Shown one piece after another: positions 14,559 through 21,305 of a stretch of DNA of 64,000 nt. This stretch comes from Gemmatimonadales bacterium. Lineage in GTDB: Bacteria; Gemmatimonadota; Gemmatimonadetes; Gemmatimonadales; Gemmatimonadaceae. The stretch's first letter is position 1, and each line of letters opens with the position of its first letter. The translations under genes were made by a program, and so were the position numbers. The notes beneath the pieces are model-generated. The model saw only the letters and a list, made by a program, of their open reading frames with translations. It had not been told where the DNA came from and ran no database searches. The stretch covers positions 2,905-66,904 of the forward strand of contig JBBROY010000019.1 in the NCBI GenBank assembly GCA_038228795.1. The letters are read 5' to 3'.

Positions 14559-15851
14559 ATGGCGACGGCGACAGAGCCAGGCAACATCAGGGGCGGACAA
14601 CCCCCGATCCCCGAGACGATGCCCGAGGAAAAGGCACAGCGGCTTCCACTCGGCCCGCTCAAGACGGTGCACGTCTTCTGGATGGCCGGGATGAGCTGCG
14701 ACGGTTGCACGATCACCGTGGCGGGCGCGACCAATCCCGGTATCGAAGGGCTGCTCACGGGTACCGTGCCCGCCATGCCGAAGGTGATCCTGCACCACCC
14801 GGTCCTTTCAGTGGAAGCGGGCGCCGAGTTCATGCAGTCGTTCAAGGACGCCTACGCTGGCACGCTCGCTGATCCGTACGTCGTCGTGTTCGAGGGCTCG
14901 GTGCCAGACGAACGCATCGCCGCGCGCACCGGAGGCTACTGGTCGGCGATGGGCTCCGAGGCGATCGAGGGCGGGAGCGGCGAGACGCATCTCGTGCCGA
15001 CCGCGGAATGGTTGCACCGTCTCGCGCCCGGCGCCGCGGCGACGATCGCCATCGGCACCTGCGCGACGTGGGGCGGCATCCCGTCGGCCGAAGGGAATCC
15101 CACCGGCGCGATGAGCGTGATGGATTTTCTCGGCAAGCAGTATCGCTCCGCGTTCGGCCTTCCGGTCATCAACATTCCTGGCTGCGCGCCGCAGGGCGAC
15201 AATTTCACCGAGACGGTGTTTGCCGTCCTCCTCTTCCTGCAGGGACTCGGCCCTCTGCCCGCCTTCGATGAGCTTGGCCGCCCGTCGTGGCTGTACGGCG
15301 AAACCGTACATCGCGGATGTACGCGCGCTGGCTACTACGAGGAGGGCGTCTTCGCGCATGAGTACGGCGAGAAGGAATGTCTGGTGGAGATCGGCTGCTG
15401 GGGTCCGGTGGTGAATTGCAACATCGTGAAGCGTGGCGCGATCAACCACATGGGCGGATGCATGGAAGCGGGCGGCATCTGCATCGCCTGCACGATGCCC
15501 GGCTTCCCCGACAAATTCTCGCCGTTCTACAAGGCGCCGCCGGGCGGCATTGTGTCGACGGCTCTGTCGTACAGCGTGGGCAGCGTGATTCGCCGCCTGC
15601 GGCGACTCAGCAACCGCCACGCAAGCCGCGAGCATCGGTGGGATGTCAACAATGATGTGCCGAGCGGGTGGGCCAACCTGCCGGGTGAAACGATCGGCCT
15701 CAAGACGATGGAGTTCTTCTACCAGAAGTGGCAGCATTGGGGCGCGAGAAAACCCGGGCGCCGCCCCGGAGAGGAAGCCCGCTTGTGGGGCGGCAATCGT
15801 CCCGGCAAGCCGAGTGACTACATCGACGACAGCGTGTCGGAGGGCAAATGA
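14559..15851 (+). CDS. [NiFe]-hydrogenase small subunit (no Tat signal, no C-terminal anchor helix)
   Basis: FWMAGMSCDGC, IAIGTCATWGGIPSAEGNPTGA, INIPGCAPQGDN and HRGCTRAGYY...GCWGPVVNC...CIACTMPGFPDKF are the cluster-ligand motifs. AGGAG-like RBS lies upstream. Confidence 0.93.
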   Translation: MATATEPGNIRGGQPPIPETMPEEKAQRLPLGPLKTVHVFWMAGMSCDGCTITVAGATNPGIEGLLTGTVPAMPKVILHHPVLSVEAGAEFMQSFKDAYAGTLADPYVVVFEGSVPDERIAARTGGYWSAMGSEAIEGGSGETHLVPTAEWLHRLAPGAAATIAIGTCATWGGIPSAEGNPTGAMSVMDFLGKQYRSAFGLPVINIPGCAPQGDNFTETVFAVLLFLQGLGPLPAFDELGRPSWLYGETVHRGCTRAGYYEEGVFAHEYGEKECLVEIGCWGPVVNCNIVKRGAINHMGGCMEAGGICIACTMPGFPDKFSPFYKAPPGGIVSTALSYSVGSVIRRLRRLSNRHASREHRWDVNNDVPSGWANLPGETIGLKTMEFFYQKWQHWGARKPGRRPGEEARLWGGNRPGKPSDYIDDSVSEGK

Positions 15852-16141
15852 CCGACGCAGAGCTGTGGGCGTCGTGGCGGCTCTGGATGGGCGTGGCGGC
15901 ACTGATCATCGTGATCGCCGCCGTGCTCCTCATCCTCATCTGGCGCACCGCGCGGGGCATTTACACCGAGGCGCTTCGCGCGCTCGCCGCGGCGGAACGC
16001 ATTCGGCAGAACACGATGCCGATCTGGGCGCTCGAGACGACGAACGAAGTCGCGGGCGGTCTCCTCGAGACGGTCCAGCAGATCGAACAGAAGGGCGGCG
16101 CGCTCGCCGCGGCGCTCGAGTCACACGCTGGCGCACACTGA
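15848..16141 (+). CDS. Hydrogenase-associated single-pass membrane mini-protein, paralogue 1 (97 aa)
   Basis: ATGA overlap with the small-subunit stop. Helix WRLWMGVAALIIVIAAVLLILIW, then RTARGI...RIRQNTMPIWAL. Confidence 0.7.
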   Translation: MTDAELWASWRLWMGVAALIIVIAAVLLILIWRTARGIYTEALRALAAAERIRQNTMPIWALETTNEVAGGLLETVQQIEQKGGALAAALESHAGAH

Positions 16142-16154
16142 CGGAGATCAGACC

Positions 16155-16487
16155 ATGCAACAACCATCGGCCGAGGCGGTCCGCACTATCTGGACGCTTT
16201 CTCTCGTTGTCTTCACCGTCGTGCTCGTCGTCGTCGCGGTGCTGCTCACGTTGATCCTGCGCACGGCGCGCGACATCAAAGGGGGCGTGAGCTTGATCTG
16301 GAACGTGGGACAGCGCATCGCCAACAACACCATACATCTGGCGCTGCTCGCGAAGACCAACGCCGGCGCCACGGCGATCCTCAACTCCGCCATCGGCGTC
16401 ATTGGCGCGACATCGGCCGTACAAGCCCACGCCGAGCAGTGTGCCGGGTGTCCGGCGTGCGTTCTCGGGCCGGGGTGGTCGCGATGA
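16155..16487 (+). CDS. Hydrogenase-associated single-pass membrane mini-protein, paralogue 2 (110 aa) with a C-terminal CxxCxxC
   Basis: GGAG RBS lies 9 nt upstream. Helix IWTLSLVVFTVVLVVVAVLLTLIL, then RTARDI...RIANNTIHLALL. Tail is HAEQCAGCPAC. Confidence 0.7.
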   Translation: MQQPSAEAVRTIWTLSLVVFTVVLVVVAVLLTLILRTARDIKGGVSLIWNVGQRIANNTIHLALLAKTNAGATAILNSAIGVIGATSAVQAHAEQCAGCPACVLGPGWSR

Positions 16488-16801
16488 ATCCGTTCACATT
16501 GTTGGCGCTGCTCTCGCTCGTTGGCGCGGCGGCGCTCTTCATCGCGCTGCTGCTCTTTCTGAACTTGATCACCACTGAGCTGGAGAAGATCGGCGGCGAA
16601 GAGAAGGGGTACGGCGTGCGGGCCAGCTTTCTCTCGAAGATTCGCGTCGGCGTTCGCGCGATCGAGACGCAGACGGGCGCGATCGCTCCGCAGGTGACGA
16701 AGCTCAACGGCACGCTCACGCAGGTGCGCGACGGGCTCGTCGCGATCGACAAGAACCTCGCGGGCGTGATTGCCGCCGTCGTGCGACAGGAGACGACATG
16801 A
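16484..16801 (+). CDS. Hydrogenase-associated single-pass membrane mini-protein, paralogue 3 (105 aa)
   Basis: ATGA overlaps at both ends. Helix FTLLALLSLVGAAALFIALLLFLNLI, then AIETQTGAIAPQVTKLNGTL. Confidence 0.7.
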   Translation: MNPFTLLALLSLVGAAALFIALLLFLNLITTELEKIGGEEKGYGVRASFLSKIRVGVRAIETQTGAIAPQVTKLNGTLTQVRDGLVAIDKNLAGVIAAVVRQETT

Positions 16802-17100
16802 GCGCCGATCTCATGCCCGGCTCGGTCTACATCATCTGGTGGATCGGACTGATCGTCACGCTGGTGATTTTCGTGCCGCTCTCGGTCTATCTGCTGCACC
16901 GCACCTGGGTCGCCGCGCGCTCCATCCAGCAATACGCCGCCGAGACACTGACGGCGGCCGCCGGCATCGCGGGCAACACCCAACACATTCCCGCGCTCGA
17001 CGCGACGATTTCGGTCGGCGGCTCCATGGTCGCCGTCGCCGGAGAGATCGCCGCCAAACTCGAAGCCGCCGGCGGTGTGCTCGCCGACCGCGCGAAGTGA
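16798..17100 (+). CDS. Hydrogenase-associated single-pass membrane mini-protein, paralogue 4 (100 aa)
   Basis: ATGA overlap. Helix VYIIWWIGLIVTLVIFVPLSVYLL, then HRTWVAARSI...GIAGNTQHIPAL. Confidence 0.7.
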   Translation: MSADLMPGSVYIIWWIGLIVTLVIFVPLSVYLLHRTWVAARSIQQYAAETLTAAAGIAGNTQHIPALDATISVGGSMVAVAGEIAAKLEAAGGVLADRAK

Positions 17101-17110
17101 GGACACACCC

Positions 17111-17374
17111 ATGCTCTTGATGCTGACGCTCATCGTCGTCGCTCTCGTCGTGCTCGCGTTGGCCGGCTATCTCATCGCGATAGCGTGGGCTCTGATGGCG
17201 GCCCGGCGCAGTGTGGCCGCCATCGCCGACGGACTCGAAGCAGTGGCCGGCCACACCGCGCCGCTGCCGGACAAGCTCACCACGATCAACGGCGCGCTCA
17301 CGCAGCTCCTCACCGGCCTTCAGGCCGCCGACCGCCACCTCGGGCGCGTCGCCACCGTCTTCAAGCTCGGCTGA
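17111..17374 (+). CDS. Hydrogenase-associated single-pass membrane mini-protein, paralogue 5 (87 aa)
   Basis: Helix MLLMLTLIVVALVVLALAGYLIAIAWAL, then MAARRSV...AVAGHTAPLPDKLTTINGAL. Ends 26 nt before the large-subunit ATG. Confidence 0.65.
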   Translation: MLLMLTLIVVALVVLALAGYLIAIAWALMAARRSVAAIADGLEAVAGHTAPLPDKLTTINGALTQLLTGLQAADRHLGRVATVFKLG

Positions 17375-17400: not shown

Positions 17401-19299
17401 ATGTGCTTCAAGAATCTTCCTGTCGAGTTCGACGCGCAGGGCAAGGCGTTTCTCAAGGACGGCGCCGGGAATCCTTACTCGACCGCGACCGCCGGTCCGC
17501 CCGGCGTTCCCAAGCAGCTGACATCGGAGCGGGTGGCCGAGCTGGTCAAGCGCAACGGACACGTCAAGGATGTCGATTTCGATCCGGTGACGCGCGTCGC
17601 CGGCGCGCTCGCCTTTCACACCGTCGCCGACGTGCGCGAGCGCAAGGTGATCGAAGCGCGCTCCGTCGCGACGCTGTTCCGCGGCTATGAGGTGATCATG
17701 ATCGGCCGCGATCCGCGCGACGCGATCTTCATCACGAGCCGCGCCTGCGGCGTGTGCGGCGGCGTGCACTCGACCTGTTCCGCGCTGGCGATCGAGATGG
17801 CGATCGGTTGCAATCCACCACCGCTCGGCGTGCTCATTCGCAATCTCGCGCTGGCGCTCGAGTTTCTCTACGACAACCCGTTGCACCTGCATCTGCTCGC
17901 CGGCCCCGACTACTCGGCCGCGATCGTCGAGGGGACGAATCCGGGATTGATCGAGCGCGCACGGCACACCGAGGCGAAGCACACCGCGGTGCATGGATAT
18001 AAGACGATTCTCGAATTGATGACCGACCTCAATCCGCTCAGCGGTGGCTTGTATCTCGAGGCGCTGCACATGACGCGCGTGGCGCGCGAAGCCTACGTGC
18101 TCATCTGCGGCAAGTATCCGCATCCGCAGACGATCGTGCCGGGCGGGATGAGCTCGACCATCAACCTGACCGTGATGAACGAGATGTACGTCCGCATGAG
18201 CCAGTTCTTCGATTACGGCAAGAAGATGGCGGGGATCTGGGATGATCTGACCGAGTTCTTTTACGAGGCGGATGAGAAGTACAAGATGGTGGGGGCGCGC
18301 CGCGCCAACATGATCGATACGGGCATCTTCGACCATCCCGACGCGTACGACGCGACGTACAAGAACGCGAGCGAGTGGGGCAATCGCAGGTGGGCGACGC
18401 CGGGCGCGATCGTCGACGGCCAACTCGTCACGACCGATCTGCACAAGATCAACATGGGGCTCGAGGAGTTCGTCGAGCACTCGTACTACGAGCCGTGGAC
18501 TGGCGATGGACAGAAACAGCGCTTCGCAACCGACGAGATCGGGCTGCCGCTCTCGCCCTATCACCCGTGGAACAAGGTGACGAAGCCCAAACCCGGCGCG
18601 CAGAGTTGGAAGGAGAAGTACACGTGGGACACCGCCCCACGGTGGGATCGGCTCGGTATGGAAGCGGGATGCTACGCGCGGCTCTGGAACACGGCTGTCG
18701 CGCGCAAGATGCCGGACAATCCATTCATCGAGTCGACCGGGCATTCGCTCAAGATTCGCTTGCCGCGCGGGAAGCTGCCCGAGATGGAGATCGAGTGGCA
18801 CGTGCCCAAGGTATGGAACGCGTTCGAGCGCAATCGTGCCCGCGCGTACTGCGTGGGCTGGGTCGCGATGACGGCGATGAATCAGTGGATGGCGGCGATG
18901 GAGCGCCTCAAGGATGGAGACACCAAGACGTCGACCAAGTTCGAGATCCCCAAGCGCGGCGAGCAGATGGGCGTCGGCTTCTGGGGCGCCGGTCGCGGAT
19001 ACCTCACGCACCATCTGGTGCTCGATCGCGGCGCGGTCGCCAACTACCAGATCGTCACGCCCTCGACGTGGAACGCGTCGCCGACCGATCGGTGGGGGCA
19101 GCCCGGTCCATACGAGGAGGCGGTGATGAATACGCCGCTCCTCGAGGAGTCGACCGATCCGGCGAAGTTCCGCGGCATCGACATCCTGCGCGCCATTCGT
19201 AGCTTCGACCCATGCATGCCGTGCACGACGCACATTCAGTCGGAGGCGGGTATGATCACGCGCGAGGTCAATACGTGCGCGTGCGGTCTGGACGATTGA
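17401..19299 (+). CDS. [NiFe]-hydrogenase large (catalytic) subunit
   Basis: N-terminal DPVTRVAGAL, L1 motif SRACGVCGGVHS, RGYEVIMIGRDPRD, L2 motif SFDPCMPCTTH followed by a 21-aa C-terminal extension. GGAG RBS lies upstream. Confidence 0.95.
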   Translation: MCFKNLPVEFDAQGKAFLKDGAGNPYSTATAGPPGVPKQLTSERVAELVKRNGHVKDVDFDPVTRVAGALAFHTVADVRERKVIEARSVATLFRGYEVIMIGRDPRDAIFITSRACGVCGGVHSTCSALAIEMAIGCNPPPLGVLIRNLALALEFLYDNPLHLHLLAGPDYSAAIVEGTNPGLIERARHTEAKHTAVHGYKTILELMTDLNPLSGGLYLEALHMTRVAREAYVLICGKYPHPQTIVPGGMSSTINLTVMNEMYVRMSQFFDYGKKMAGIWDDLTEFFYEADEKYKMVGARRANMIDTGIFDHPDAYDATYKNASEWGNRRWATPGAIVDGQLVTTDLHKINMGLEEFVEHSYYEPWTGDGQKQRFATDEIGLPLSPYHPWNKVTKPKPGAQSWKEKYTWDTAPRWDRLGMEAGCYARLWNTAVARKMPDNPFIESTGHSLKIRLPRGKLPEMEIEWHVPKVWNAFERNRARAYCVGWVAMTAMNQWMAAMERLKDGDTKTSTKFEIPKRGEQMGVGFWGAGRGYLTHHLVLDRGAVANYQIVTPSTWNASPTDRWGQPGPYEEAVMNTPLLEESTDPAKFRGIDILRAIRSFDPCMPCTTHIQSEAGMITREVNTCACGLDD

Positions 19300-19303
19300 C
19301 CGC

Positions 19304-19900
19304 ATGGCTCGCCGTACCGTGATGCGCACGGTGATCGGCGGCGTCGGTTATCGCAATCTGCGCGATCACTCGTTAGGCATCATGATGAGCGACGAGCTCG
19401 AGCCGGAAGCGCGCCCGCCGGCGCTGCTGGTCGAAGACTTGAGCTACGGCCCCGTGGCCGTCGGCCAGTGGCTGCTCGATGAGGCGCGCGACGCTCCCGA
19501 AGGACCGATCACGCGCGCGATCTTCATCTCGGCCATCGCGCGGGCAGACGGCCGCCCGCCAGGTACGATGTGCGCCTACCGGTGGGACCGCGTTCTTCCG
19601 TCGCCCGATGAAATTCAACGCTGCGTCACCGATGCGGTGACCGGCGTGATTCTGCTCGACAACACGCTGATCGTCACGGCGTGGATGGGCGCGCTCCCCG
19701 ATGACGTGATCGTGGTCGAAGTCGAGCCGATGGAGCACGCGTTCGGCGATGAGATGAGCGCGTCGGTCGCGGCCGCGTATGCTGAAGCCAAGCCGCTCGT
19801 GATGACGCTCGCGACCGACGTCGCCGCCTCGCGCGCGCTTCCGGTCATGCCCCTGGGCGGAGGCTGGGCGCGTACCGGCGTGTGGAGCCTCGCTCGATGA
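19304..19900 (+). CDS. Divergent HyaD/HybD-like hydrogenase maturation protease family protein
   Basis: MRTVIGGVGYRNLRDHSLG resembles the vlGiGN.l.gDdg.G N-terminus of the endopeptidases. About 198 aa. Starts 4 nt after the large subunit. Confidence 0.55.
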   Translation: MARRTVMRTVIGGVGYRNLRDHSLGIMMSDELEPEARPPALLVEDLSYGPVAVGQWLLDEARDAPEGPITRAIFISAIARADGRPPGTMCAYRWDRVLPSPDEIQRCVTDAVTGVILLDNTLIVTAWMGALPDDVIVVEVEPMEHAFGDEMSASVAAAYAEAKPLVMTLATDVAASRALPVMPLGGGWARTGVWSLAR

Positions 19901-20814
19901 CTGAGGCCGAGCGGGCGCCCGATGCCGATGGCGACTCGGGAGACGTCCTCGCGGAAGTCGAGCAGCTCATCGCCCTGCTCACGGCGCATACCGATCCAAT
20001 CGTCGGCGAGACCGTGACGGCGCTGCTCGACCGCGTCGACGCCGTACACCGTACCGCGCTCGCGCATCTCATGGGCGCCATCCAGTCGATGGCCGGTGAC
20101 GCCTTCGTCAACCGGCTCACCGGCGACCCGGCGATCCGGCTGCTGCTCATGTCATACGACCTGCTCGCCGTGGATCGGCGCACGCTGGCCGAGGAGGCAC
20201 TCGATGCGGTGCGCGGTCACCTCCACGCGCATGGCATCGACGTCGAGCTCGTCGAAGTACTCGGCGGCGTCGTCTCCGTTCGCCTGCACGGGGCGCCGAC
20301 GGACGATCCAGCATATGCGGGCGCGGTGCGAGACATCGGCCAAGCGTTGCAGACAGGGTTCCTTGGCTTTCAGGAGCTCGAGCTGCGCGACGGCAAAGGC
20401 GCGCGGCCGGTGTCGAAAGACTCGACGTTTCTGCCGCGGGAGGCACTGCAGCGGGCGTTTCGGCCGGTGTACTCGGCGATTTGCGCGGCCGCGGAGATTG
20501 CGCCCGGGAGCACTCGGAGCGCGATCGTGAACGGGATGCCCGTGCTGTTGGCAAACGTCGACGGCGAGTTCTACGCTGTTCGCAACGCATGCGGCGATGG
20601 TCCGCTCCCGCTCGACTACAGCACGCTCGACGGCGCCGAGCTCACGTGCAGCTGGCACCGCTGCCGCTACGACATGCGCACCGGCCACCGGTTGGACTAC
20701 CCGGAGGCATCGCAGGATGAGCAGTTGGTCGTGTACCCGGTGCGCGTTCGCGATGGCGTGATCGAAGTCGTGGTCGGCACCGCGCCGGCGAGCGCCAGCG
20801 CGGCGGGCACCTAG
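19897..20814 (+). CDS. NifU-C-like plus Rieske-like two-domain protein (HucE/HhyE-like putative Fe-S electron carrier)
   Basis: HGIDVELVEVLGGVVSVRLHG is NifU-C-like without CxxC. The C-terminal part, FYAVRNACGDGPLPL...LTCSWHRCRYDMRTGH...VYPVRVRDGVIEV, has Rieske/NirD-like fold motifs. ATGA overlap upstream. Confidence 0.6.
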   Translation: MTEAERAPDADGDSGDVLAEVEQLIALLTAHTDPIVGETVTALLDRVDAVHRTALAHLMGAIQSMAGDAFVNRLTGDPAIRLLLMSYDLLAVDRRTLAEEALDAVRGHLHAHGIDVELVEVLGGVVSVRLHGAPTDDPAYAGAVRDIGQALQTGFLGFQELELRDGKGARPVSKDSTFLPREALQRAFRPVYSAICAAAEIAPGSTRSAIVNGMPVLLANVDGEFYAVRNACGDGPLPLDYSTLDGAELTCSWHRCRYDMRTGHRLDYPEASQDEQLVVYPVRVRDGVIEVVVGTAPASASAAGT

Positions 20815-21305
20815 TGCGCACCCTCATCGCAGGTTTCGGCAACGTGCTGCGCGGCGACGATGGCTTCGGAGTCGAGGTGCTTCGGCGGCTCGGGGAGTGC
20901 GGCGTGGCGAGCGACTCGGTCGAGCTGCTCGATGTCGGGACTGGCGGCATCCGCTTGGCGCAGGAGCTGATCAATCCGTACGACCGCCTCATCATCATCG
21001 ACGCGACCACACGGGGAGGCGTGCCGGGAACGGTGTACGTCCTGGCCATCGACGGCGTCGAGGCGGCGCGCGAGATTGACATGCACACCGCGATACCGTC
21101 GGCCGCCCTGTCCGTCGCCAAAGCGTTGGGCGCGCTGCCGCCCGAGATCTTCTTGATTGGATGCGAGCCGGCGGAGGTGGATGATCTCGTGGTTGGGCTG
21201 TCGGCCGCCGTGAGCGTCGCCGCCGATGCGGCGGTGCAACGGGTTCATGAGCTGATGCGGAAGCAGAGTGCGTTTGCGCGAACGGAGGTGAGCAATGAGC
21301 GGTGA
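20814..21305 (+). CDS. Hydrogenase maturation endopeptidase (HyaD/HybD/HupD family)
   Basis: MRTLIAGFGNVLRGDDGFGVEV...LIIIDA...DMHTA...FLIGCEP are canonical protease motifs. GTG start. Confidence 0.88.
   Translation: MRTLIAGFGNVLRGDDGFGVEVLRRLGECGVASDSVELLDVGTGGIRLAQELINPYDRLIIIDATTRGGVPGTVYVLAIDGVEAAREIDMHTAIPSAALSVAKALGALPPEIFLIGCEPAEVDDLVVGLSAAVSVAADAAVQRVHELMRKQSAFARTEVSNER

What the first reader, a model, noticed from the sequence alone, without database searches (positions are those of the whole stretch)
17581..17619. Ala replaces the proton-gate Glu in the large subunit (DPVTRVAGAL instead of DP(I/V)TRIEGH)
Seen: codon 67 (17599-17601, GCC) encodes Ala in FDPVTRVAGALAFH. By eye this segment aligns residue-for-residue with the conserved N-terminal DPITRIEGHLRI of standard group 1 large subunits. 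The downstream RG.E.I..GRDPRD and RACGVC motifs are in register. So the Glu and the following His are both Ala here. Established: this Glu (Glu25 in Desulfovibrio fructosovorans numbering) sits next to a Ni-ligating Cys, and its mutation to Gln blocks proton transfer and catalysis. Inference: either this lineage uses a different proton pathway, or the enzyme has altered kinetics or a non-standard role. It may be a lineage signature rather than unique to this genome.
Basis: partly seen in the sequence, partly recalled or inferred. Interest (0 to 1): 0.6.

Follow-up and report, generated by a model that had tools for sequence, protein, structure and literature searches.

The report
Hydrogenase lacking its usual proton-gate glutamate
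The hydrogen-oxidising enzyme in this soil bacterium really does have alanine where textbook [NiFe]-hydrogenases have an essential proton-relay glutamate. This is a fixed trait of the whole group 1l/1h family of air-hydrogen scavengers, which may supply the missing acid group from the partner subunit instead.

Summary
Codon 67 (17599-17601, GCC) of the 632-aa large subunit (17401-19299) encodes Ala. It aligns without gaps to the gate Glu of standard enzymes (E. coli Hyd-1 DPITRIEGH). The locus is a typical group 1l (Hyl) [NiFe]-hydrogenase operon: HylS, five HylTM mini-genes, HylL, HylE, protease.

The substitution is not peculiar to this genome. Ala is invariant in 120/120 close homologues and in 78/78 species genomes from at least nine phyla, and all four Ala codons are used. 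The sister group 1h has Val or Ile there, including the solved, active C. necator enzyme (5AA5: DPITRIVGS). In a tree, 1h+1l form one clade (support 0.93) without the Glu. The nearest outgroup (1g), Huc (2a) and all other groups keep E-G-H.

New lead: the small-subunit residue next to the first proximal-cluster Cys is Thr18 in D. vulgaris, 2.5 Å from the gate Glu. That residue is Asp/Glu in 68/68 1h/1l loci plus 5AA5, and never acidic in about 40 Glu-bearing enzymes. I propose, as an unverified inference, that the carboxylate is supplied in trans by HylS Asp48. No coordinates were available to test this.

Verdict: an ordinary member of a known family, with a family-wide trait that conflicts with the 'universal proton gate' view.

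The parts
14559..15851 (+). HylS, small subunit (430 aa), group 1l type
   Evidence: Pfam PF01058 + PF14720. Best PDB hit is 5AA5_A, E 2e-110. It has a four-Cys proximal motif S-C-D-G-C and a roughly 80-100 aa C-terminal extension relative to 5AA5_A (351 aa).
14700..14702 (+). HylS Asp48 (GAC), the residue after the first proximal-cluster Cys; candidate proton acceptor supplied in trans
   Evidence: It aligns to Thr of C-T-G-C in standard small subunits, which is Thr18S of DvMF, 2.52 Å from the Glu34L carboxylate (PMC10498676). The slot is Asp in 56/56 1l loci, Asp/Glu in 12/12 1h loci, and never acidic in about 40 Glu-bearing enzymes. The proton-acceptor role is inferred.
15848..17374 (+). 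[quoted passage not shown]
   Evidence: ORFs at 15848-16141, 16155-16487, about 16484-16801, 16798-17100 and about 17111-17374 each have one hydrophobic helix. The layout matches the one described for group 1l (bioRxiv 10.1101/2020.08.06.239558).
17401..19299 (+). HylL, large (catalytic) subunit, 632 aa
   Evidence: PF00374. 5AA5_C matches at E 7e-153. It is the only [NiFe] large subunit in the genome.
17581..17619 (+). N-terminal strand DPVTRVAGALAFH, the segment of the finding
   Evidence: It is invariant D-P-[VI]-T-R-[VI]-A-G-A-L in 120 homologues and 78 genomes.
17599..17601 (+). Codon 67, GCC = Ala, in the column of the canonical proton-gate Glu (Glu28 Hyd-1 / Glu25 D. fructosovorans / Glu34 DvMF)
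   Evidence: All four Ala codons occur at this site across 78 genomes.
17605..17607 (+). Codon 69, GCG = Ala, in the column of the His of E-G-H
   Evidence: His in 26/29 Glu-type sequences, Ala in all 1l, Ser/Asn in 1h.
17746..17769 (+). L1 motif C116-G-V-C119-G-G-V-H123 (Ni/Fe ligands)
   Evidence: invariant.
17872..17877 (+). Asp158-Asn159. Asp158 is the canopy Asp (Asp118 of Hyd-1). Residue 159 is the His104 slot of the alternative Arg-Asp-His-Glu pathway
   Evidence: Alignment. Asp158 is invariant. Residue 159 is His in 137 and Asn in 29 group 1l sequences, and Asn here. The pathway is described in PMC3325256.
18985..19014 (+). G529-A-G-R532-G-Y-L-T-H537-H538: canopy Arg532 is kept, Glu to Gly at 529, Trp to His at 538
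   Evidence: 529 is Glu/Asp in 26/28 Glu-type sequences and Gly in 1l. 538 is Trp in 28/28 Glu-type sequences and His in 1l and mostly in 1h (5AA5 reads SHH).
19207..19233 (+). L2 motif D603-P-C605-M-P-C608-T-T-H611. Cys605 is the equivalent of the proton-accepting terminal Cys, and His611 is the protease cleavage site
19882..20814 (+). HylE, Rieske/NifU-like putative electron-transfer protein
   Evidence: PF00355, PF13806, PF01106. Named as a group 1l operon component.
20814..21305 (+). HupD/HycI-type maturation endopeptidase
   Evidence: PF01750, E 6e-21.

Best explanation
The gene encodes an ordinary, functional group 1l (Hyl) [NiFe]-hydrogenase large subunit. Ala67 is the fixed, selected state of that family. 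The canonical gate Glu, together with the His two residues on, was lost once in the common ancestor of groups 1h and 1l, the cytosolic, O2-insensitive enzymes linked to scavenging of atmospheric H2. It has since been Ala (1l), Gly (a sister clade) or Val/Ile (1h). These enzymes still oxidise H2, so the proton released at the Ni-bound Cys (Cys605 here) must leave another way. My preferred mechanism is inferred, not shown. The carboxylate is supplied in trans by the small subunit. The residue directly after the first proximal-cluster Cys is Thr18 in D. vulgaris, where it touches the gate Glu. In 1h/1l it is an Asp (HylS Asp48 here). Shortening the large-subunit side chain to Ala/Val makes room for it. 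The Asp, perhaps with a water in the cavity left by Ala, would accept the proton from Cys605 and pass it outward along the subunit interface.
For: Shown: Ala67 aligns to the gate Glu. The locus has every group 1l hallmark. Ala is invariant in 120/120 homologues at 74-91% identity, in 78/78 GTDB species genomes across Gemmatimonadota, Acidobacteriota, Methylomirabilota, Chloroflexota, Armatimonadota, Planctomycetota, Pseudomonadota and Actinomycetota, and in all but one of the 50%-identity representatives of 1l type (that one has Gly). All four Ala codons are used, which indicates purifying selection on the residue. Group 1h has Val/Ile in 5AA5, in 17 representatives and in 13 genomes. The 1h+1l clade has SH-like support 0.927 and no Cys-bearing member has Glu, while the sister 1g (Hyperthermus, Pyrodictium) keeps E-G-H. 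Huc keeps Glu. Only three columns carry a conserved Asp/Glu/His in Glu-type enzymes that is lost in 1l: 67, 69 and 529. For the trans-Asp idea: in DvMF, Thr18S O-gamma lies 2.52 Å from the Glu34L carboxylate, which lies 3.20 Å from Cys546L S-gamma (PMC10498676). The Thr18S slot is Asp in 56/56 1l loci, Asp (11) or Glu (1) in 12/12 1h loci, and Asp in 5AA5_A. It is Thr/Ser/Ala/Gly in about 40 Glu-bearing enzymes. The Asp is kept whether the fourth cluster ligand is Cys (1l) or Asp (1h), so it is not itself that ligand. For activity: purified 1h enzyme is active but slow (PMC11023054), and a 1l organism is a validated atmospheric H2 oxidiser (PMC13554262).
Against: No three-dimensional check was possible. 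The AlphaFold2 model was poor (mean pLDDT 52.8) and no coordinates are exposed, so the distance from the Asp to Cys605 is unknown. The Glu loss and the Asp gain may each be a single ancestral event, so their perfect correlation counts as one phylogenetic observation, not 68. The Asp sits next to a proximal-cluster ligand and might tune that cluster's potential or O2 response rather than move protons. In 1h the gate column is bulky and hydrophobic (Val/Ile), which could block rather than make room. An independent Glu-less lineage (L141-L158) does not have an acidic residue in the small-subunit slot. I could not read the 5AA5 structure paper, which may already treat this point.
Confidence: 0.6

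Rival explanations
1. Protons leave by the 'canopy' route instead (Arg532 - Asp158 - Asp603, onward through His/Asn159 and waters). This is the alternative pathway proposed for standard enzymes. Nothing replaces the Glu at the gate site.
For: Arg532, Asp158 and Asp603 are invariant in 1l and align to Arg509, Asp118 and Asp574 of Hyd-1. An Arg-Asp-His-Glu pathway was supported by mutagenesis in T. roseopersicina, where the gate Glu14Gln variant kept about 50% activity (PMC3325256).
Against: These residues are equally conserved in Glu-bearing enzymes, so they do not explain what changed. The His of that pathway is variable in 1l (His 137, Asn 29; Asn in this window), and the nearby conserved Glu (column 529) is lost in 1l. 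This rival does not account for the strictly correlated acidic residue in the small subunit.
Confidence: 0.2
2. There is no dedicated protein gate. A water molecule sits in the cavity left by Ala/Gly, or proton escape is simply slow. This is tolerated because these enzymes turn over slowly at trace H2 and only in the oxidation direction.
For: Group 1h activity is very low (<0.5 µmol H2/min/mg; PMC11023054). In Hyd-1 E28Q, entry of H2O/OH- near the blocked gate rescues proton transfer (PMC8020662). Ala and Gly are small enough to admit water.
Against: Group 1h has Val/Ile, which leaves little room for water. Strict invariance of Ala, with synonymous codon turnover over many phyla, suggests a precise steric requirement rather than mere tolerance.
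Confidence: 0.15
3. The alignment register is wrong, or another large-subunit acidic residue folds into the gate site.
For: None found. His73 (invariant in 1l, Tyr/His in 1h) lies on the same strand face and replaces a Glu of standard enzymes.
Against: The alignment of about 100 residues around the site is gapless to 5AA5 (E 7e-153) and to Hyd-1. No column gains a conserved Asp/Glu in both 1h and 1l near any active-site motif. The only shared gains are Asp/Glu285 and His538.
Confidence: 0.03
4. The protein is not a working hydrogenase (a sensor, a scaffold or a decaying gene).
For: Cys-less paralogues do exist inside this clade (P0125, P0131, P0132).
Against: The window's protein keeps all four Cys, the canopy Arg/Asp, the Mg-site Glu97 and the C-terminal cleavage His. 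It sits in an operon with hypC/D/E/F, a protease and HylE, and it is the sole hydrogenase of a 99.9%-complete genome. The family is under strong purifying selection (PMC13554262).
Confidence: 0.02

Closest known systems
Group 1l [NiFe]-hydrogenase (HylSL with HylTM1-5, HylE), defined from Antarctic soil MAGs and Hymenobacter roseosalivarius (Ortiz et al.; bioRxiv 10.1101/2020.08.06.239558)
   Same: The gene order is the same (small subunit, five single-pass membrane ORFs, large subunit, Rieske-type HylE, endopeptidase). It also shares the four-Cys proximal cluster motif, the long HylS C-terminal tail, and the L1/L2 motifs RACGVCGGVH and DPCMPCTTH.
   Different: Nothing essential differs. The tri-Cys tail is on the second mini-protein here, whereas the paper names HylTM4. 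The papers I could read do not mention the missing gate Glu.
Group 1h 'actinobacterial-type' hydrogenase of Cupriavidus necator (HofKG, PDB 5AA5)
   Same: It is the closest solved structure (large E 7e-153, small E 2e-110). It also lacks the gate Glu and His (DPITRIVGS) and also has Asp after the first proximal-cluster Cys (C-D-G-D). It is cytosolic, O2-insensitive and slow.
   Different: It has Val where the window has Ala. Its fourth proximal-cluster ligand is Asp, not Cys. It has no HylTM genes and a shorter small subunit. L1 is RICGICGDNH. It keeps Glu at column 529 and the Asp-His pair at 158-159.
E. coli Hyd-1 E28Q and D. fructosovorans E25Q engineered variants (PDB 5LMM, 6FPI and others)
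   Same: The carboxylate is removed at exactly this column, and these variants are the experimental basis for calling it the proton gate.
   Different: They are engineered in enzymes whose small subunit has E-C-T, not S-C-D, and activity collapses. Here the change is natural, ancient and compensated or tolerated.
Huc, group 2a high-affinity hydrogenase of Mycobacterium smegmatis (PDB 7UTD/7UUS)
   Same: It is another O2-insensitive oxidiser of atmospheric H2.
   Different: It keeps the gate Glu (SPLGRVEGD). Loss of the Glu is therefore not a requirement for high affinity or O2 insensitivity.

Membership tests
Group 1l [NiFe]-hydrogenase (Hyl) | Large subunit falls in the 1l clade, separate from 1h | tested here: met
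   FastTree: the query groups with RACGVCGGVH-type sequences (1l+sister support 0.991), separate from the RICGICGDNH (1h) clade. Identity to 1h representatives is 41-45%.
Group 1l [NiFe]-hydrogenase (Hyl) | [quoted passage not shown] | tested here: met
   There are five ORFs in 15848-17374, each with one hydrophobic helix. This matches. The feature is not universal in the clade: L107 and L108 lack the insert.
Group 1l [NiFe]-hydrogenase (Hyl) | Proximal cluster bound by four Cys (1h has Asp in place of one) | tested here: met
   HylS reads S-C-D-G-C, against G-C-D-G-D in 5AA5_A. The motif is the same in 56/56 1l loci.
Group 1l [NiFe]-hydrogenase (Hyl) | About 100-aa C-terminal extension of the small subunit | tested here: met
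   HylS is 430 aa and 5AA5_A is 351 aa. The alignment ends at query residue 367.
Group 1l [NiFe]-hydrogenase (Hyl) | Rieske-type HylE and maturation endopeptidase downstream | tested here: met
   PF00355/PF13806/PF01106 at 19882-20814 and PF01750 at 20814-21305.
Group 1l [NiFe]-hydrogenase (Hyl) | Aerobic oxidation of H2 to sub-atmospheric levels | not testable with these tools
   It is reported for H. roseosalivarius in the literature. No data exist for this organism.
[NiFe]-hydrogenase large subunit (general) | Four Ni/Fe-ligating Cys in RxCGxCxxxH and DPCxxCxxH, with a C-terminal His cleavage site | tested here: met
   Cys116, Cys119, Cys605, Cys608 and His611, followed by a 21-aa extension.
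[NiFe]-hydrogenase large subunit (general) | Active-site canopy Arg and two Asp (Arg509, Asp118, Asp574 in Hyd-1) | tested here: met
   Arg532, Asp158 and Asp603 are aligned and invariant.
[NiFe]-hydrogenase large subunit (general) | Gate Glu next to the terminal Cys, called a 'universal proton gate' (PMC8020662) | tested here: not met
   Ala67 occupies the column. The same holds for the whole 1h+1l clade, so this feature does not define the superfamily.
Group 1h [NiFe]-hydrogenase (Hhy/AH) | L1 TSRICGICGDNH, L2 SFDPCLPCGVH, Asp-ligated proximal cluster | tested here: not met
   The query has TSRACGVCGGVH, SFDPCMPCTTH and C-D-G-C. It is the sister family, not a member.

The most novel reading that the evidence does not exclude
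In groups 1h and 1l, which are linked to much of soil uptake of atmospheric H2, the proton-gate carboxylate has moved between subunits. It has shifted from the large-subunit Glu to a small-subunit Asp that is bonded to the first Cys ligand of the proximal Fe-S cluster. That position would couple proton exit directly to the redox state of the proximal cluster. This could contribute to the one-way, O2-insensitive, low-turnover catalysis of these enzymes.
Probability: 0.35. Interest if true: 0.65.

Novelty: new member of a known kind. Interest (0 to 1): 0.42.

Why it matters
Recent mechanistic papers describe the gate Glu as universal (PMC8020662). This survey shows that two entire, very abundant hydrogenase groups (1h and 1l) lack it yet work. 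They are found in hundreds of soil species in at least nine phyla and are linked to atmospheric H2 uptake. The catalytic proton must therefore leave by another route in these enzymes. The correlated small-subunit Asp gives a specific hypothesis that is cheap to test, by inspecting PDB 5AA5 and making one or two point mutants in C. necator or M. smegmatis. That bears on why these enzymes are slow, unidirectional and O2-insensitive, and on their use as air-stable H2 catalysts. For this particular window, though, the finding is an ordinary family trait.

Tried and rejected
1. An AlphaFold2 model of HylL from a 30-sequence alignment gave mean pLDDT 52.8, with the N- and C-terminal active-site parts below 50. 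No coordinates are exposed in the Python box. I did not use the model and did not spend the second job or any fold search.
2. Pfam PF00374 starts after the N-terminal strand, at window 17680, so it cannot score the gate column. NCBIfam has no 1h/1l-specific model above cut-off.
3. Literature: nine searches and nine papers were read for any statement that 1h/1l lack the gate Glu, and none was found. The 5AA5 structure paper (PMID 26749450) is not held, so prior description cannot be excluded.
4. I looked for independent support from a second Glu-less lineage (metagenome scan). That lineage has Asn/His/Ser in the gate column and Thr/Ser in the small-subunit slot. It neither supports nor contradicts the trans-Asp idea.
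5. I looked for a compensating large-subunit acid. The only Asp/Glu/His gains shared by 1h and 1l are at columns 285 and 538 (Trp to His). I cannot place either in 3D.
6. I could not retrieve the H. roseosalivarius HylL sequence by name, because the genome-contig scan returned only the 80 closest loci. Its Ala is therefore inferred from clade-wide invariance.
7. I checked whether the in-frame TGA flagged in 1h locus L103 was a Sec codon. It lies outside the gene.
Full report
**1. The observation**

The window carries a 632-aa ORF at 17401-19299 (+). It is a nickel-dependent hydrogenase large subunit (PF00374, E 7e-78). Bases 17581-17619 encode DPVTRVAGALAFH, and codon 67 is GCC (Ala) at 17599-17601.

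phmmer against all PDB chains aligns this stretch, without gaps, to E. coli Hyd-1 'DPITRIEGHM'. Ala67 lies opposite Glu28 and Ala69 opposite His30. It aligns in the same way to the engineered E28Q variant 'DPITRIQGHM'. The downstream landmarks are in register:
- FRGYE and GRDPRD;
- the L1 motif RACGVCGGVH (Cys116, Cys119);
- the canopy residues Asp158, Arg532 and Asp603;
- the L2 motif DPCMPCTTH (Cys605, Cys608, His611).

In a MAFFT alignment with 58 family representatives, column 67 is Glu in all 29 Cys-bearing sequences outside the 1h/1l clade, apart from three that lack it (P0215, P0260, P0268). Column 69 is His in 26 of them. The observation and its register are confirmed.

**2. What the locus is**

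The small subunit lies at 14559-15851 (PF01058 + PF14720). Five short ORFs with one hydrophobic helix each fill 15848-17374. Downstream of the large subunit come a Rieske/NifU-like protein (19882-20814) and a HycI-type endopeptidase (20814-21305).

This is the arrangement published for group 1l (HylS, HylTM1-5, HylL, HylE, HupD) (bioRxiv 10.1101/2020.08.06.239558 and its Supplementary Note 1). Two further 1l traits named there are met:
- a four-Cys proximal cluster motif (S-C-D-G-C, against G-C-D-G-D in the 1h structure 5AA5_A);
- a long C-terminal tail on the small subunit (430 aa against 351 aa).

The closest solved structure is the group 1h enzyme of C. necator (5AA5: large E 7e-153, small E 2e-110). 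The genome is 99.9% complete and has no other [NiFe] large subunit. Close homologues are labelled Gemmatimonadota, Vicinamibacterales and similar soil taxa.

**3. How widespread the substitution is**

- All 120 nearest protein clusters (74-91% identity) read D-P-[VI]-T-R-[VI]-A-G-A-L.
- A scan of one genome per GTDB species found 532 genomes encoding a relative. Of the 80 loci kept, 78 include the N-terminus, and all 78 have A-G-A-L-A. They span Gemmatimonadota, Acidobacteriota, Methylomirabilota, Chloroflexota, Armatimonadota, Planctomycetota (Gemmatales), Pseudomonadota (Luteimonas, Sphingomicrobium) and Actinomycetota.
- Across these genomes codon 67 uses GCC (47), GCG (19), GCT (8) and GCA (4). 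The residue, not the codon, is conserved.
- An exhaustive HMMER search of 1.84 billion 50%-identity representatives shows a clear pattern. Sequences of 1l type have Ala, except one cluster with Gly. A sister clade also has Gly (P0129, P0130; V-G-G-A-L). Every group 1h sequence (L1 RICGICGDNH) has Val or Ile (DPITRIVGSLG or IIGNLG). All other groups have E-G-H.
- The solved 1h enzyme itself reads DPITRIVGSLGIY, and 13 further 1h genomes read the same.
- In a FastTree phylogeny, 1h, 1l and the Gly clade form one clade (SH-like support 0.927) in which no Cys-bearing member has Glu. The neighbouring clade keeps E-G-H and includes Hyperthermus butylicus and Pyrodictium sequences, that is, group 1g.

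One ancestral loss is the parsimonious reading. Huc, the other structurally characterised atmospheric-H2 oxidiser (group 2a), keeps the Glu (SPLGRVEGD). Losing the Glu is therefore not needed for high affinity or O2 insensitivity.

**4. Function**

Nothing suggests an inactive protein. All metal ligands, the canopy, the Mg-site Glu97 and the cleavage His are present. The hyp genes and a protease are adjacent. Purifying selection on the family is strong (PMC13554262).

The 1h enzyme that shares the substitution has been purified and is active, though slow (<0.5 µmol H2/min/mg; PMC11023054). H. roseosalivarius, the 1l type organism, is cited as an experimentally validated atmospheric H2 oxidiser.

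The established background is as follows. The gate Glu accepts the proton from the terminal Ni-bound Cys. Its Gln variant abolishes turnover in D. fructosovorans (as cited in PMC3325256 and PMC8020662). It is still described as 'a universal proton gate' (PMC8020662). However, the same Glu-to-Gln change left about 50% activity in T. roseopersicina, and an Arg-Asp-His-Glu route was proposed as an alternative (PMC3325256).

**5. A candidate replacement (inference)**

Comparing Glu-type enzymes with 1l, only three columns carry a conserved Asp/Glu/His that 1l has lost:
- column 67 (Glu to Ala);
- column 69 (His to Ala);
- column 529 (Glu to Gly, three residues before the canopy Arg).

No large-subunit column near an active-site motif gains an acid in both 1h and 1l. 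The shared gains are Asp/Glu285 and a Trp-to-His change at 538.

The small subunit is more telling. In the D. vulgaris Miyazaki F neutron/X-ray structure, the relay runs from Cys546L S-gamma to the Glu34L carboxylate (3.20 Å), then to Thr18S O-gamma (2.52 Å), then to Glu16S (PMC10498676). Thr18S is the residue right after the first proximal-cluster Cys (E16-C17-T18-G-C20).

In the window this stretch is S46-C47-D48-G-C50, and in 5AA5 it is G-C-D-G-D. I tabulated the slot against the large-subunit gate column:

| Enzyme set | Residue in the Thr18S slot |
|---|---|
| Group 1l loci | Asp in 56/56 |
| Group 1h loci | Asp in 11, Glu in 1, of 12 |
| 30 Pseudomonadota small subunits | Thr in 28 (E-C-T), Ser in 2 |
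| About 10 further Glu-bearing enzymes, and D. baculatum | Thr, Ser, Ala or Gly |

An Asp in that slot would put its carboxylate close to where the Glu carboxylate normally sits. A shorter large-subunit side chain (Ala, Gly, Val) would make room for it. The Asp is kept whether the fourth cluster ligand is Cys (1l) or Asp (1h), so it is not that ligand.

I therefore propose that HylS Asp48 is the proton acceptor for Cys605, possibly through one water.

The caveats are substantial:
- The correlation may reflect a single ancestral event.
- The Asp might instead tune the proximal cluster.
- Val/Ile in 1h may not leave room.
- I could not inspect any coordinates. The AF2 model was poor (pLDDT 52.8), none are exposed, and the 5AA5 paper is not held.

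**6. Rivals**

- A canopy route (Arg532-Asp158-Asp603) is conserved here. But it is equally conserved in Glu-type enzymes. Its next residue is variable in 1l (His 137, Asn 29; Asn in this window).
- A water-only or 'slow is good enough' gate fits the low turnover and the rescue of Hyd-1 E28Q by water entry. It fits poorly with Val/Ile in 1h and with the strict invariance of Ala.
- Misalignment and loss of function are effectively excluded (sections 1 and 4).

**7. Comparison and novelty**

The window's enzyme is a regular member of group 1l, and every definable family feature tested is met. The one 'general [NiFe]' feature it fails, the gate Glu, is failed by the whole 1h+1l clade, including a structure deposited in 2015-16. 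The substitution is therefore a family trait that anyone could read from public sequences.

I found no explicit discussion of it in the papers I could read, but I cannot exclude one. The correlated small-subunit acid is a lead I have not seen described. It can be checked in minutes on 5AA5.

**8. Verdict**

Interest for this window is moderate to low as a discovery about this genome. It is moderate as a pointer to an unaddressed mechanistic question in environmentally dominant hydrogenases.

Noticed in passing
P0125, P0131, P0132, P0147; loci L109, L110: There are hydrogenase-like large-subunit paralogues (590-800 aa) nested inside the 1l clade that have lost the Ni/Fe-binding Cys (e.g. SRTRGLSSGAH, SRISGRMSVAH). 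In L110 two such genes sit in tandem next to a small-subunit-like gene that keeps its cluster Cys but has Asn (G-C-N-G-C) in the Asp48 slot.
   Followed up: partly
Loci L141-L148, L152, L155, L158; P0260, P0268: A second, unrelated lineage of about 470-aa [NiFe] large subunits (L1 RICGICS[TSQ]AH, L2 DPC[NY]AC[SA]SH) also lacks the gate Glu. The column is Asn, His or Ser. Their small subunits read C-[TS]-G-[DNE], with a non-Cys fourth ligand. The group was not identified.
   Followed up: partly
L107, L108: Two group 1l operons, in genomes drawn from the phylum of the Acidimicrobiia genome G001, have the small-subunit gene within 1.5 kb upstream of the large subunit. They therefore lack the five HylTM genes, so the TM insert is not universal in 1l.
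   Followed up: no
window 17875-17877 (HylL residue 159): The residue after the canopy Asp is polymorphic in 1l: His in 137 sequences and Asn in 29. The window has Asn. This is the His104 slot of the proposed Arg-Asp-His-Glu alternative proton path.
   Followed up: partly
window 18985-19014 (HylL 529-538): Group 1l replaces the conserved Glu of the G-F-x-E-x-P-R-G motif by Gly. Both 1h and 1l replace the otherwise invariant Trp of P-R-G-x-L-x-H-W by His (T-H-H). The structural meaning is unknown.
   Followed up: no
window 19304-19900: The 198-aa ORF between HylL and HylE weakly resembles a hydrogenase maturation protease (TIGR00072, E 1e-5, below cut-off). This would be a second, divergent protease-like gene besides the HycI-type one at 20814-21305.
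   Followed up: no
window 16155-16487: Only the second of the five mini-proteins ends in a Cys-rich tail (H-x3-C-x2-C-x2-C). The group 1l paper reports such a tri-Cys motif on HylTM4 of H. roseosalivarius, so the order or numbering differs.
   Followed up: no
L103 (G270:C11): A divergent 1h enzyme (61% identity to the 1h representative) has Glu instead of Asp after the first proximal-cluster Cys (S-C-E-G-D). This conservative swap keeps the carboxylate.
   Followed up: partly
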